Assembly: GCF_048403405.1 (NCBI RefSeq)
Contig: NZ_CP183129.1
DNA length: 64,000 bases
Strand: one strand, 5' to 3'
From: Escherichia coli
Lineage (GTDB): Bacteria > Pseudomonadota > Gammaproteobacteria > Enterobacterales > Enterobacteriaceae
Positions 2,737-6,992 of this stretch are shown in pieces. A program made the translations under genes and the position numbers. How positions within the stretch are numbered: the stretch's first letter is position 1; each line of letters opens with the position of its first letter. The notes beneath the pieces were generated by a model that ran no database searches, was not told the DNA's origin, and saw nothing but the letters and a program-made list of their open reading frames with translations.

Positions 2737-3786
2737 ATGGCAACAGGCACGCAGCCCGATGCTGGGCAGATCCTCAACTCGCTGATTAACAGTATTTTGT
2801 TAATCGATGACAACCTGGCGATCCATTACGCCAACCCCGCCGCGCAACAACTGCTCGCCCAAAGCTCCCGCAAATTGTTTGGTACGCCGTTACCGGAACT
2901 GTTGAGCTACTTCTCATTAAATATCGAGCTGATGCAAGAAAGTCTGGAGGCGGGGCAAGGCTTTACCGATAACGAAGTGACGCTGGTCATCGACGGGCGC
3001 TCGCATATCCTTTCTGTGACGGCCCAGCGTATGCCGGACGGCATGATCCTGCTGGAGATGGCTCCGATGGATAACCAGCGCCGCTTAAGTCAGGAACAGC
3101 TACAGCACGCCCAGCAGGTTGCTGCCCGTGATTTAGTGCGCGGCCTGGCACATGAGATTAAAAATCCGCTTGGCGGTTTACGTGGCGCGGCGCAGCTGCT
3201 CAGCAAAGCATTACCTGACCCGTCACTACTCGAATATACCAAAGTGATTATCGAACAGGCGGACCGGCTGCGAAATCTGGTCGACCGTCTGTTGGGACCG
3301 CAACTGCCCGGTACGCGCGTTACCGAAAGTATTCATAAAGTGGCTGAACGCGTGGTGACGCTGGTGTCGATGGAACTGCCGGACAACGTGCGGTTGATTC
3401 GTGATTACGACCCCAGCCTGCCGGAACTGGCGCACGACCCGGATCAAATTGAGCAAGTGCTCCTGAATATTGTGCGCAATGCGCTACAGGCGCTGGGGCC
3501 AGAGGGTGGTGAAATCATTCTGCGTACCCGCACAGCTTTCCAACTGACCTTACACGGCGAGCGTTATCGGCTGGCGGCGCGAATTGATGTGGAAGATAAC
3601 GGGCCAGGTATTCCGCCTCATTTGCAGGATACACTGTTTTACCCGATGGTCAGCGGCCGCGAAGGTGGCACCGGGCTTGGCTTATCCATCGCCCGTAATT
3701 TGATTGATCAGCATTCAGGCAAAATTGAATTTACCAGTTGGCCAGGTCATACCGAGTTCTCGGTTTACCTGCCTATCAGGAAATAA
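2737..3786 (+). CDS. glnL: nitrogen regulation sensor histidine kinase NtrB (NRII)
   Basis: 349-aa [22 protein letters not shown]...; HisKA/HATPase motifs ([13 protein letters not shown]); glnLp -10 TATAAT at 2694-2699 overlaps an NtrC-like site GCACTAAAATGGTGCA (2700-2715). Confidence 0.95.
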
Positions 3787-3797
3787 AGGTGACGTTT

Positions 3798-5207
3798 ATG
3801 CAACGAGGGATAGTCTGGGTAGTCGATGACGATAGTTCCATCCGTTGGGTGCTTGAACGTGCGCTCGCTGGAGCGGGTTTAACCTGTACAACATTTGAGA
3901 ACGGCGCGGAGGTACTGGAGGCGCTGGCGAGCAAAACGCCGGATGTGCTGCTTTCAGATATCCGTATGCCGGGAATGGACGGGCTGGCGCTGCTCAAGCA
4001 GATTAAACAGCGCCATCCGATGCTTCCGGTCATCATTATGACCGCACATTCCGATCTGGATGCTGCCGTCAGCGCCTATCAACAAGGGGCATTTGATTAT
4101 CTGCCCAAACCGTTTGATATCGACGAAGCCGTGGCGCTGGTTGAGCGCGCCATCAGTCATTACCAAGAACAGCAGCAGCCGCGTAATGTTCAGCTTAACG
4201 GCCCAACGACCGATATCATCGGCGAAGCGCCAGCCATGCAGGACGTGTTCCGTATTATCGGTCGGCTTTCGCGTTCTTCTATTAGCGTGCTGATTAACGG
4301 CGAATCCGGCACCGGTAAAGAGCTGGTCGCTCATGCCCTGCATCGCCACAGTCCGCGAGCCAAAGCGCCGTTTATCGCGCTGAATATGGCGGCTATCCCG
4401 AAGGATTTGATCGAATCAGAACTGTTTGGTCACGAGAAAGGCGCGTTTACTGGCGCGAACACCATTCGTCAGGGGCGTTTTGAACAGGCCGATGGCGGCA
4501 CGTTATTTCTCGACGAAATTGGTGATATGCCGCTGGATGTGCAGACGCGTTTGCTGCGCGTGCTGGCAGACGGTCAGTTTTATCGCGTTGGCGGCTATGC
4601 GCCGGTGAAAGTGGATGTGCGGATTATCGCTGCCACTCACCAGAATCTTGAACAGCGGGTGCAGGAAGGTAAGTTCCGTGAGGATCTGTTCCACCGCCTG
4701 AACGTCATCCGCGTTCATCTGCCACCACTGCGTGAGCGTCGGGAAGATATTCCCCGCCTGGCACGCCATTTTTTACAGGTTGCCGCGCGCGAACTGGGCG
4801 TAGAAGCGAAGTTACTGCATCCGGAAACCGAAGCCGCGCTGACGCGTCTGGCGTGGCCAGGCAACGTGCGCCAGCTGGAAAACACCTGCCGCTGGCTAAC
4901 GGTAATGGCTGCCGGACAGGAAGTGTTGATTCAGGATTTGCCTGGCGAACTGTTTGAATCAACGGTTGCGGAGAGTACTTCGCAAATGCAACCGGACAGT
5001 TGGGCGACGCTGTTAGCGCAGTGGGCAGACAGGGCGCTGCGTTCCGGTCATCAAAATCTGCTTTCCGAAGCGCAGCCTGAGCTGGAGCGGACGTTACTGA
5101 CCACCGCGCTGCGACATACGCAGGGGCATAAACAGGAAGCGGCGCGGCTACTCGGCTGGGGGCGTAACACTCTGACGCGGAAGTTAAAAGAGCTGGGGAT
5201 GGAGTGA
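3798..5207 (+). CDS. glnG: nitrogen regulation response regulator NtrC (NRI), sigma-54 activator
   Basis: Starts [23 protein letters not shown] at the ATG at 3798, 11 nt after the glnL stop; the ORF-track start at 3738 is an in-frame upstream extension overlapping glnL; AAA+ GESGTGKE and GAFTGA motifs; C-terminal HTH. Confidence 0.95.
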
Positions 5208-5318
5208 TTCACGGCTTGTGTGTAAAGATTGATTATTGAGCGCAAATTGCTGGTATTTTGCGCTTTACTGTTCCGATAAGTTCAGTATGATCTTGCCCGG
5301 AAAACGGGGAGAGTCATT

Positions 5319-5429
5319 ATGCTGGAATCAATAATTAATCTGGTATCGAGTGGCGCAGTTGACAGCCACACACCGCAAACTGCCGTTGCTGCCGTGCTGT
5401 GTGCCGCGATGATTGGGCTGTTTAGCTGA
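5319..5429 (+). CDS. yshB: small hydrophobic protein (36 aa) MLESIINLVSSGAVDSHTPQTAVAAVLCAAMIGLFS
   Basis: ATG with SD GGGGAGAG 6 nt upstream; in the glnG-hemN spacer where the small protein YshB is annotated in K-12 (recalled); below the ORF-track size cutoff. Confidence 0.45.
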   Translation: MLESIINLVSSGAVDSHTPQTAVAAVLCAAMIGLFS

Positions 5430-5463
5430 GTTTCAGATTGCTGATGAAGTGCTCTTTGTTCAT

Positions 5464-5552
5464 GCCGGATGCGGCGTGAACGCCTTATCCGGTCTACAAA
5501 AGCAATATTTTCAACAGGTTTTGTAGGCCTGATAAGCGTAGCGCATCAGGCA
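5464..5552. repeat. REP/BIME element (two inverted REP units)
   Basis: GCCGGATGCGGCGTGAACGCCTTATCCGGTCTACA ... TGTAGGCCTGATAAGCGTAGCGCATCAGGCA; canonical enterobacterial REP palindromes. Confidence 0.7.
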
Positions 5553-5618
5553 ATCTTGTTCTCAGCACATTGATGGCGCTTTCGTTTTCTACTTTGTAAA
5601 CGAAGCGCCATTCACTAT

Positions 5619-6992
5619 TTAAATCACCCGTGAGAACTGCTGCATCCGCGCTTTCTGGCGCAGATAGGTATCAAAGCACATGCAAATGTTGCGGATCAGC
5701 AAGCGACCTTTCGCCGTCACCTGAATCCCCTTCTCATCCACATCCACCAGCCCATCTTTTGCTAACGGGGCGAGCAGCTTGAGATCTTCGGCAAAGTAAT
5801 CAGCGAAGTGCAAATCCCACTGTTGCTCAATGGGAGCGTAATCCAGACGGAAGTTGCAGATGAGCGACTTAATCACATCGCGGCGAATACAGTCATCACG
5901 CGTTAGCGCAATACCACGCCACAGCGCATTGCCTTGTTCATCCACTTGCTGATAGTACTGCTTCAACTCTTTCTGGTTCTGCGCGTAGCAGTCGCCAATC
6001 ATGCTGATGGCGGAAACGCCCATCCCCAGCAGATCGGTATCGCCCTGAGTGGTGTAGCCCTGGAAGTTACGATGCAGCACGCCTTCACGCTGGGCCACCG
6101 CCAGTTCGTCATCAGGACGGGCAAAGTGATCCATACCGATAAACTGATAGCCCGATTGCGTCAGGAAGGCGATGGTTTCCTGCAGGATATCGAGTTTTTG
6201 CTGCGGACTCGGCAAGTCAGCATCTTTGATTTTGCGCTGAGCAGCAAAAATGGTCGGCAGATGCGCATAGTTAAAGACGCTCAGACGATCGGGGTTCAGC
6301 TCCGCCACGCGTTTCAGGGTAAAAGCGAAACTCTCCGGCGTTTGTTTCGGCAGGCCGTAAATCAGGTCGATGTTGGTGGAGGTAAAACCAATCTCACGCG
6401 CATGGTTAAGCAGTGCAAAGATGAACTCTTCATCCTGCTCGCGGTTAACCAGACGTTGCACTTCTTTGTTGAAGTCCTGCACGCCCATGCTCAGGCGATT
6501 AAAGCCCTCGGCGCGTAAATGATCGAGTACATCCAGTTCGATTTCGCGCGGATCGACTTCGATCGAAATCTCCGCATCGGCATTGAACTGGAAGTTTTCG
6601 CGCAGCAGCTTCATCAGACGGCTGATTTGCGCTTTGTTCAGATACGTCGGCGTACCACCGCCCCAGTGCAGCTGGCTCACCTTGCGCCCGGCAAAAAGCG
6701 GTGCACGATGGACGATTTCTTGCTCCAGCGCGTCCAGATACTGATCGGCCTTGTGCTGCTGGCGAGTAACAATCTTATTGCAACCGCAGAAGTAACAAAG
6801 CTTATGGCAGAACGGAATATGTACGTAGAGAGATAATGGACGCTCAGGATAGCGCGCCACGGCTTGTAAAAACGCCTGTTCGCCGAAGTCTTCTGAAAAC
6901 TCCAGCGCGGTCGGGTACGAGGTGTATCGTGGCCCGGAATAGTTATATTTCTGGATCAGGGCCAGATCCCAGTCGATTTGCTGTACAGACAT
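5619..6992 (-). CDS. hemN: oxygen-independent coproporphyrinogen III oxidase (radical SAM)
   Basis: ORF MSMSVQQIDWDLALIQKYNYSGPRYTSYPTALEF; CxxxCxxC radical-SAM motif (HIPFCHKLCYFCGC); start taken at the second Met to give 457 aa (the alternative start at 6998 adds 2 aa). Confidence 0.93.
   Translation of the reverse strand: MSVQQIDWDLALIQKYNYSGPRYTSYPTALEFSEDFGEQAFLQAVARYPERPLSLYVHIPFCHKLCYFCGCNKIVTRQQHKADQYLDALEQEIVHRAPLFAGRKVSQLHWGGGTPTYLNKAQISRLMKLLRENFQFNADAEISIEVDPREIELDVLDHLRAEGFNRLSMGVQDFNKEVQRLVNREQDEEFIFALLNHAREIGFTSTNIDLIYGLPKQTPESFAFTLKRVAELNPDRLSVFNYAHLPTIFAAQRKIKDADLPSPQQKLDILQETIAFLTQSGYQFIGMDHFARPDDELAVAQREGVLHRNFQGYTTQGDTDLLGMGVSAISMIGDCYAQNQKELKQYYQQVDEQGNALWRGIALTRDDCIRRDVIKSLICNFRLDYAPIEQQWDLHFADYFAEDLKLLAPLAKDGLVDVDEKGIQVTAKGRLLIRNICMCFDTYLRQKARMQQFSRVI

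What the first reader, a model, noticed from the sequence alone, without database searches (positions are those of the whole stretch)
5319..5429. Short ORF in the glnG-hemN spacer that is missing from the ORF track
A 36-codon ORF (MLESIINLVSSGAVDSHTPQTAVAAVLCAAMIGLFS) with a good Shine-Dalgarno sequence and a hydrophobic C-terminal half lies 112 nt downstream of glnG. It corresponds in position to the small protein YshB (recalled). It is below the 60-aa cutoff of the supplied track, so it would be overlooked.
Basis: partly seen in the sequence, partly recalled or inferred. Interest (0 to 1): 0.3.

Follow-up and report, generated by a model that had tools for sequence, protein, structure and literature searches.

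The report
Known small protein gene yshB
The 36-codon ORF between glnG and hemN is real and under selection as a protein, but it is the already annotated E. coli small-protein gene yshB, missed only because the first-stage ORF track ignored anything under 60 codons.

Summary
An ATG-to-TGA ORF of 36 codons lies at 5319-5429 (+). A GGGGAGAG Shine-Dalgarno ends 5 nt before the ATG (GGAG core 7 nt before), and the ORF starts 112 nt after glnG. The peptide is identical to K-12 YshB (b4686). RefSeq annotates the same coordinates as yshB, and it scores 72.1 bits against NCBIfam NF033841 (cut-off 34). In 80 species loci anchored on GlnG, 30 carry the ORF directly after glnG. All 30 have an ATG, a purine-rich SD and only whole-codon indels. 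Codon-position entropy is 0.86/0.44/1.43 bits and median dN/dS is 0.22. A sigma-70 promoter (TTTACT-16-TATGAT, 5264-5291) has invariant -35 and near-invariant -10 hexamers in 17 species. Promoter plus ORF is single-copy in 5425 of 5426 complete E. coli genomes. Published work reports the native protein by top-down mass spectrometry, cleavage of tagged versions by the protease RseP, and a virulence role for the Salmonella ortholog. Best reading: a two-helix, tail-anchored inner-membrane micro-protein that binds a larger membrane partner; that partner is unknown. Already known; low interest.

The parts
5319..5429 (+). yshB coding sequence: 36 codons plus a TGA stop
   Evidence: ORF. RefSeq yshB CDS at the same coordinates. 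Identical to K-12 b4686. NF033841 at 72.1 bits. Purifying selection in this frame, median dN/dS 0.22.
5306..5313 (+). Shine-Dalgarno sequence GGGGAGAG (GGAG core at 5308-5311, 7 nt before the ATG)
   Evidence: Sequence. A GGAG/GGGG-type purine run about 6-10 nt upstream of the ATG in 29 of 31 sequences; the two Budvicia have GGAG 11 nt upstream.
5264..5291 (+). Sigma-70-type promoter of yshB: -35 TTTACT (5264-5269), 16-nt spacer, -10 TATGAT (5286-5291)
   Evidence: Consensus scan. The -35 hexamer is invariant and the -10 nearly invariant in 17 Enterobacteriaceae species, while the spacer between them varies. [quoted passage not shown] The transcription start site was not measured here.
5238..5265 (+). 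Hairpin with a 9-bp stem, GAGCGCAAA / TTTGCGCTT, overlapping the -35 hexamer: a possible glnALG terminator or upstream promoter element (inferred)
   Evidence: Present in the minimum-energy and centroid folds, but the 96-nt segment folds no better than shuffles (z = 0.17). The terminator scan did not call it. The stem is not kept in Kluyvera, Siccibacter or Mangrovibacter, although the sequence block is conserved.
5573..5611 (.). Strong hairpin 7 nt beyond the hemN stop: a candidate shared terminator for the convergent yshB and hemN transcripts (inferred)
   Evidence: Fold. The terminator scan did not call it. No 3'-end data were available.

Best explanation
Window 5319-5429 is yshB, a conserved and independently transcribed gene for a 36-residue micro-protein. 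It has its own sigma-70 promoter (5264-5291) and SD. The product is predicted to form an N-terminal amphipathic helix (residues 2-12), a short linker ending in a conserved P-Q-T turn, and a 16-17 residue hydrophobic C-terminal helix that runs to the last residue. The most likely mechanism is as follows. The C-terminal helix anchors the peptide in the inner membrane. A conserved small-residue face (A24, A25, C28, A29) packs against a transmembrane helix of a larger partner protein, or of another YshB copy, and so modulates that partner. This is how MgrB, AcrZ, MgtS and CydX work. The site-2 protease RseP turns the protein over. Shown here: the gene exists, is under protein-level purifying selection, and has conserved expression signals. 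Taken from the literature: the native protein is detected, tagged forms are RseP substrates, and the Salmonella ortholog promotes intracellular replication and virulence. Inferred only: the membrane topology, the partner-binding mechanism and the identity of the partner.
For: Identity. Conservation: 30 of the 80 GlnG-anchored species loci carry the ORF directly after glnG, in Enterobacteriaceae, Erwiniaceae, Pectobacteriaceae, Yersiniaceae (Serratia), Hafniaceae and Budviciaceae. All have an ATG start, a stop at the same aligned column and whole-codon indels only (35-41 aa). Codon-position entropy is 0.86/0.44/1.43 bits and median dN/dS is 0.22 over 304 pairs with unsaturated dS. The two other sense frames hold 67 and 54 stops. 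Promoter hexamers are conserved around a variable spacer. Promoter plus ORF is single-copy in 5425 of 5426 complete E. coli genomes. Structure: AlphaFold2 gives H2-12 and H19-35, mean pLDDT 73. The 16-residue uncharged tail is present in 30 of 31 homologs, and the hydrophobic moment is 1.73 for residues 1-12 against 0.39 for the tail. M1, A24 and C28 are invariant; P19, Q20, A25 and A29 are nearly invariant. Literature: native YshB detected by top-down proteomics (PMC12529367). Ribosome-profiling-based estimate of more than 11,000 copies per cell (PMC7549839 citing Li et al. 2014). Class I RseP substrate in four assays, including the purified enzyme (PMC10470546). Own promoter, not induced by nitrogen limitation (PMC9731577). 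Salmonella virulence role (Bomjan et al. 2019, as cited). The Salmonella ortholog differs at 3 of 36 residues.
Against: The hydrophobic segment has only 16 residues, which is short for spanning a bilayer. The family has almost no positive charge (0 Lys and 2 Arg in 1198 residues), so there is no positive-inside signal to set topology. One proteomics paper lists YshB apart from 'the small membrane proteins'. [quoted passage not shown] All RseP data come from N-terminally tagged constructs, and the authors warn that tags can change topology. No partner is known, and no solved structure contains the peptide. The gene is cleanly absent from Yersinia, Rahnella, Pseudocitrobacter and others, so any function is dispensable in those lineages. 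The primary papers (Hemm 2008, Bomjan 2019, Li 2014) were not readable here. Their content is taken from citing papers.
Confidence: 0.97

Rival explanations
1. YshB is translated but is not a membrane-spanning protein. It would be a soluble or peripherally bound two-helix hairpin that buries its hydrophobic helix in a dimer or against a cytoplasmic partner.
For: The hydrophobic run is only 16 residues, there are essentially no Lys or Arg, and the net charge is about -2. An amphipathic N-terminal helix could shield the C-terminal helix. PMC12529367 names YshB separately from the membrane proteins.
Against: Tagged YshB is cleaved by the intramembrane protease RseP in vivo at chromosomal enzyme levels and in vitro. 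Bands also appear that the authors attribute to periplasmic proteases. That requires membrane insertion of at least the tagged form. TMHMM or TOPCONS predicted a single span. NCBI's curated name is 'small membrane protein'.
Confidence: 0.15
2. The ORF is a chance reading frame, and the conserved element is a non-coding RNA or the glnG 3' UTR.
For: The same spacer holds eight ORFs of 20 aa or more. In Pseudomonas an sRNA (NrsZ) lies downstream of ntrBC.
Against: Variation is concentrated at third codon positions and median dN/dS is 0.22. The start and stop codons are conserved, indels are whole codons, and the other sense frames are full of stops. The native peptide has been seen by top-down MS. 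No Rfam family matches the ORF.
Confidence: 0.01
3. yshB is bifunctional: the mRNA also acts as a regulatory RNA, and the peptide is secondary.
For: It is a short, independently transcribed and reportedly abundant transcript. From my own recollection, Bomjan et al. found the gene while screening small RNAs. This is unverified because the paper was not readable.
Against: Synonymous sites are close to saturation between genera (pS 0.45-0.74). That leaves little room for a conserved base-pairing seed inside the ORF. No evidence for an RNA function was found.
Confidence: 0.03

Closest known systems
YshB of E. coli K-12 (b4686; NCBIfam NF033841 'YshB family small membrane protein')
   Same: Identical 36-aa sequence, the same position between glnG and hemN, and the same orientation relative to both.
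   Different: Nothing in the gene itself differs. Only the REP-containing spacer downstream differs in length: 189 nt here and 228 nt in K-12.
Salmonella enterica YshB (Bomjan, Zhang and Zhou 2019, J Bacteriol 201:e00314-19)
   Same: A 36-aa ortholog in the same 90%-identity cluster, with 33 of 36 residues identical (V23L, M31L, I32V). Citing papers report the same locus downstream of glnLG.
   Different: The virulence and intracellular-replication phenotype was shown in Salmonella only. No phenotype is known for E. coli.
Small inner-membrane regulators MgrB, AcrZ, MgtS and CydX (single-helix micro-proteins that bind PhoQ, AcrB, MgtA and cytochrome bd)
   Same: They are under 50 aa, have one hydrophobic helix, and come from small independently expressed genes missed by classical annotation. 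MgrB and CydX appeared in the same RseP substrate screen.
   Different: There is no sequence relationship. No partner is known for YshB. It lacks the flanking positive charges usual in such proteins, and its hydrophobic helix is shorter and runs to the C-terminus. This is an analogy of mechanism, not family membership.

Membership tests
YshB family small membrane protein (NCBIfam NF033841, equivalog) | Whole-protein score above the curated HMM cut-off | tested here: met
   72.1 bits against a cut-off of 34, E = 2.4e-20, covering residues 1-36 on profile positions 1-40.
YshB family small membrane protein (NCBIfam NF033841, equivalog) | Sequence identity with the type member, E. coli K-12 b4686 | tested here: met
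   Translation of NC_000913.3 4053647-4053757 (-) is identical over all 36 residues.
YshB family small membrane protein (NCBIfam NF033841, equivalog) | Conserved genomic position directly downstream of glnG, convergent with hemN | tested here: met
   The window order is glnL-glnG-yshB, then hemN on the opposite strand. All 30 related loci place the ORF after glnG. Convergent hemN follows within the fetched locus in 27, directly after a 244-835 bp glnG-hemN gap in 26.
YshB family small membrane protein (NCBIfam NF033841, equivalog) | The ORF is maintained as a protein-coding frame | tested here: met
   Median dN/dS 0.22, third-position entropy 1.43 bits against 0.44 at second positions, and whole-codon indels only.
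YshB family small membrane protein (NCBIfam NF033841, equivalog) | The protein is made in cells | not testable with these tools
   Literature only: top-down MS detection (PMC12529367) and a ribosome-profiling-based copy estimate. One negative result exists for a C-terminally His-tagged construct.
YshB family small membrane protein (NCBIfam NF033841, equivalog) | Integral membrane localisation | tested here: inconclusive
   The sequence has a 16-residue hydrophobic C-terminal helix but no positive-inside signal. RseP cleavage of tagged forms supports insertion. No direct fractionation data for the native protein were accessible.

The most novel reading that the evidence does not exclude
YshB may not be a conventional bitopic membrane protein. 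It could be an unusual tail-anchored peptide, free of Lys and Arg and net-acidic. Its invariant Cys28 and the A24/A25/A29 face would mediate a specific intramembrane contact, or a disulfide-linked or ligand-linked dimer, with a partner not yet identified. Repeated clean deletions in Yersinia, Rahnella, Pseudocitrobacter and some Erwiniaceae would then track the loss or change of that partner.
Probability: 0.25. Interest if true: 0.35.

Novelty: already known. Interest (0 to 1): 0.08.

Why it matters
For the scan, this is a calibration point. Biologically, the gene has been described since 2008 and is annotated in K-12 and in essentially every RefSeq E. coli genome, so nothing new is found. The open question is its molecular function and partner. 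The anatomy computed here gives concrete mutagenesis and comparative handles for that question. These are the invariant Cys28, the small-residue helix face, the fixed 16-residue tail, the lack of positive charge, and the clean presence/absence pattern across Enterobacterales.

Tried and rejected
I replaced it with the exhaustive HMMER representative search and the GlnG-anchored loci.

2. The representative search found only 15 hits at E of 0.001 or better. Many are frameshifted, read-through or mis-started gene calls of the same locus. It added no taxonomic breadth beyond the loci.

3. Pfam has no family for the peptide.

4. The primary papers could not be read: Bomjan 2019, Hemm 2008, Hemm 2010, Fontaine 2011 and Li 2014.

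5. A 42-aa ORF beginning MLESL lies in the glnG-hemN spacer of Photobacterium pectinilyticum (L054 3191-3319) and looked like a distant homolog. I rejected it as unsupported: HMM E = 4.8, hhalign probability 19% with only the first residues aligned, and no SD.

6. The 417-bp spacer in Erwinia psidii (L026) was checked for a decayed yshB and none was found.

7. The profile search of PDB chain sequences found nothing meaningful. A fold search was not run, because a two-helix, 36-residue model would match too many folds to be informative.

8. The antisense ORF at 5282-5371 (-) and the other small ORFs in the spacer show no conservation. One antisense frame is stop-free in 24 of 31 homologs, which I take to be a by-product of the sense-strand codon composition rather than evidence of a gene.

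Full report
**1. Observation**

The window has ATG at 5319 and TGA at 5427-5429 on the + strand. This encodes MLESIINLVSSGAVDSHTPQTAVAAVLCAAMIGLFS, 36 aa. The glnG stop ends at 5207, so the ATG is the 112th base after it. A purine run GGGGAGAG lies at 5306-5313, with its GGAG core 7 nt upstream of the ATG. Every factual statement in the finding is therefore correct. The ORF alone is not remarkable: the 411-nt glnG-hemN spacer contains eight ORFs of 20 aa or more on the two strands. The case has to rest on other evidence.

**2. Identity**

A megablast of 5150-5700 against 5,426 complete E. coli genomes gave 100% matches whose annotation reads glnG, yshB, hemN.
- In NZ_CP032261.1 the RefSeq yshB CDS (WP_000893994.1, 'YshB family small membrane protein') maps exactly onto window 5319-5429.
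- In K-12 MG1655 the gene is b4686, at 4053647-4053757, and its translation is identical over all 36 residues.
- The peptide scores 72.1 bits (E = 2.4e-20) against the NCBIfam equivalog model NF033841 small_YshB, whose curated cut-off is 34.
- Pfam has no model for it.
- An exact-sequence look-up finds it on at least 1,000 contigs under the UniProt name YSHB_ECOLI. Its 90% cluster also holds the Salmonella and Escherichia marmotae orthologs.

**3. Conservation test**

To avoid bias, I anchored the search on the C-terminal 135 residues of GlnG, not on YshB. This returned 80 species-level loci, ranging from Escherichia to Shewanella, Vibrio and Stutzerimonas.

tblastn and an HMM built from the first hits found a YshB-type ORF in 30 of these loci. 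It always lies on the glnG strand and begins about 100-265 nt after the glnG stop. The loci come from these groups:
- Enterobacteriaceae: Escherichia, Citrobacter, Enterobacter, Kluyvera, Pluralibacter, Siccibacter, Mangrovibacter and Superficieibacter
- Erwiniaceae: Erwinia endophytica and two Pantoea-labelled genomes
- Pectobacteriaceae: Pectobacterium, Brenneria and Acerihabitans
- Yersiniaceae: Serratia
- Hafniaceae: Hafnia and Edwardsiella
- Budviciaceae: Budvicia

Counting the window, all 31 sequences start with ATG, and 29 have a GGAG/GGGG-type run about 6-10 nt upstream (the two Budvicia have GGAG 11 nt upstream). They end at the same aligned column with TGA, TAA or TAG. They differ in length only by whole codons (35, 36, 37, 40 or 41 aa).

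The selection measures are as follows:

| Measure | Result |
|---|---|
| Entropy at codon positions 1 / 2 / 3 | 0.86 / 0.44 / 1.43 bits |
| Pooled pN/pS | 0.40 |
| Median dN/dS (304 pairs with unsaturated dS) | 0.22 |
| Stops in the two other sense frames (31 sequences) | 67 and 54 |

**4. Presence and absence**

Where the ORF is present and hemN directly follows, the glnG-hemN gap is 244-835 bp. In the Enterobacterales where it is absent, the gap is only 36-152 bp, so the gene is cleanly missing rather than decayed. These are Pseudocitrobacter, Pseudescherichia, Escherichia sp. ESNIH1, Enterobacteriaceae bacterium RIT691, Klebsiella sp. BIGb0407, Yersinia, Rahnella, Erwinia aphidicola, Pantoea stewartii, Pantoea sp. 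IMH and Rosenbergiella.

The one exception is Erwinia psidii. Its gap is 417 bp, but it holds unrelated DNA with no yshB remnant.

Outside Enterobacterales nothing convincing was found. A 42-aa ORF beginning MLESL in the same spacer of a Photobacterium has no SD and an hhalign probability of only 19%, so I do not count it. The distribution fits a gene that was ancestral to most Enterobacterales and was lost repeatedly. This is an inference.

Within E. coli, the 173-nt promoter-plus-ORF segment is single-copy. It is present in 5,425 of 5,426 complete genomes at 95% identity or more, and it was annotated yshB in every sampled row.

**5. Expression signals**

The consensus scan found one sigma-70-like site in the spacer: TTTACT (5264-5269), a 16-nt spacer, then TATGAT (5286-5291). 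One such hit is no more than the shuffles give (mean 0.7).

The alignment of 17 Enterobacteriaceae upstream regions is more telling. The -35 hexamer is invariant and the -10 nearly invariant, while the spacer between them varies freely. That pattern marks a functional promoter.

Two hairpins may act as terminators:
- A 9-bp hairpin at 5238-5265 overlaps the -35 hexamer and could terminate glnALG.
- A strong hairpin at 5573-5611 lies just beyond the hemN stop and could terminate both convergent transcripts.

Neither was called by the terminator scan, and both roles are inferred.

**6. The protein**

AlphaFold2 with the 27-sequence alignment predicts helix 2-12, a low-confidence linker at 13-18, and helix 19-35. 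Mean pLDDT is 73.
- The N-terminal helix is amphipathic, with a hydrophobic moment of 1.73. The C-terminal helix is uniformly hydrophobic, with a moment of 0.39.
- M1, A24 and C28 are invariant. P19, Q20, A25 and A29 are at least 90% conserved. This gives a P-Q-T turn followed by a small-residue face, A-A-x-x-C-A, on the hydrophobic helix.
- The uncharged tail is exactly 16 residues and runs to the C-terminus in 30 of 31 homologs.
- The family has 0 Lys and 2 Arg in 1,198 residues, and the net charge is about -2.

Such a short hydrophobic segment with no positive-inside signal is atypical for a membrane protein. Membrane integration is therefore the least secure part of the standard description.

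**7. What the literature shows**

Everything here comes from papers I could read.
- Native YshB is detected by top-down proteomics. Bottom-up methods miss it because it has no tryptic site (PMC12529367). That fits the lack of Lys and Arg seen here.
- PMC7549839 and PMC10502375 quote an estimate of more than 11,000 copies per stationary-phase cell from the ribosome-profiling study of Li et al. 2014.
- PMC7549839 also reports that a C-terminally His-tagged version could not be detected.
- PMC10470546 classifies YshB as a class I substrate of the intramembrane protease RseP. It was positive with HA-MBP and 3xFLAG tags, with plasmid and chromosomal RseP, and with purified enzyme. Extra cleavage was attributed to periplasmic proteases, and the authors give explicit caveats about tags and topology.
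- The discovery paper (Hemm et al. 2008) and the Salmonella study could not be opened. The Salmonella study is Bomjan et al. [quoted passage not shown] I use both only as cited by others.
- The Salmonella ortholog differs from this sequence at 3 of 36 residues.
- No PDB entry contains the peptide.

**8. Mechanism**

I commit to the following. YshB is a tail-anchored, two-helix inner-membrane micro-protein. Its conserved small-residue and Cys face packs against a transmembrane helix of a larger partner, or of itself, and modulates that partner. Turnover is by RseP. This works like MgrB, AcrZ, MgtS or CydX, but YshB is not related to them.

I put the gene and protein call at about 0.97. The specific partner-binding mechanism is much less certain, at about 0.5, because the partner is unknown. 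The main rival is a soluble or peripheral hairpin (about 0.15). A non-coding explanation is effectively excluded.

**9. Verdict**

The feature is already known and annotated. It was 'missing' only because of the 60-aa threshold of the first-stage track. Interest is low.

Noticed in passing
window 5450-5560: Two REP-like palindromes (a BIME-type element) fill the spacer between the convergent yshB and hemN genes. Evidence: a sub-threshold Rfam naRNA4 hit at 5458-5494 (-), 32.2 bits against a gathering score of 59.5, and a fold z-score of -9.9. The 551-nt query containing this stretch hits a median of 34 places per E. coli genome, against 1 place for the yshB-only query. The spacer length differs from K-12: 189 nt here and 228 nt there.
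   Followed up: partly
window 5221-5262: Sequence blocks upstream of the yshB -35 hexamer are invariant or nearly so in 17 species: TGTAAA at about 5221-5226 and AAAnTGnnGnnATTTTG at about 5244-5260. In E. coli they form a hairpin that could terminate glnALG. The stem is broken in Kluyvera, Siccibacter and Mangrovibacter, so the conservation may instead mark an UP-like element or a regulator-binding site. This is unexplained.
   Followed up: partly
window 5573-5611: A strong hairpin with a stem of about 15 bp lies 7 nt beyond the hemN stop codon. It is a candidate bidirectional terminator for hemN and yshB. The simple terminator scan did not call it, because neither side has a long T run.
   Followed up: no
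YshB family (window 5319-5429 and L002-L049): The family has 0 Lys and 2 Arg in 1,198 residues, an invariant Cys28 and a fixed 16-residue hydrophobic tail. This is unusual for a protein named 'membrane protein'. It also explains why bottom-up proteomics misses it.
   Followed up: partly
L006, L010, L014, L015, L018, L029, L031, L033-L039, L043, L044: yshB is cleanly absent. The glnG-hemN gap is only 36-152 bp in Pseudocitrobacter, Pseudescherichia, Yersinia, Rahnella, Rosenbergiella, and some Erwinia, Pantoea and Klebsiella-labelled genomes, while sister genera keep the gene. This suggests repeated loss.
   Followed up: partly
L054 3191-3319 (Photobacterium pectinilyticum): A 42-aa ORF, MLESLFSFSVAMPAVSEIAANGPGHFAAGILALIAAVNMFHG, lies in the same glnG-hemN spacer. 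It shares the first five residues and a hydrophobic tail with YshB. It has no SD, the HMM E-value is 4.8 and the hhalign probability is 19%. It is probably chance, but other Vibrionaceae were not checked for it.
   Followed up: partly
window 3738-3797: The mechanical ORF for glnG starts at a TTG at 3738, 60 nt upstream of the annotated ATG start at 3798, and overlaps the end of glnL. This is an artefact of taking the longest ORF and not a real extension.
   Followed up: no
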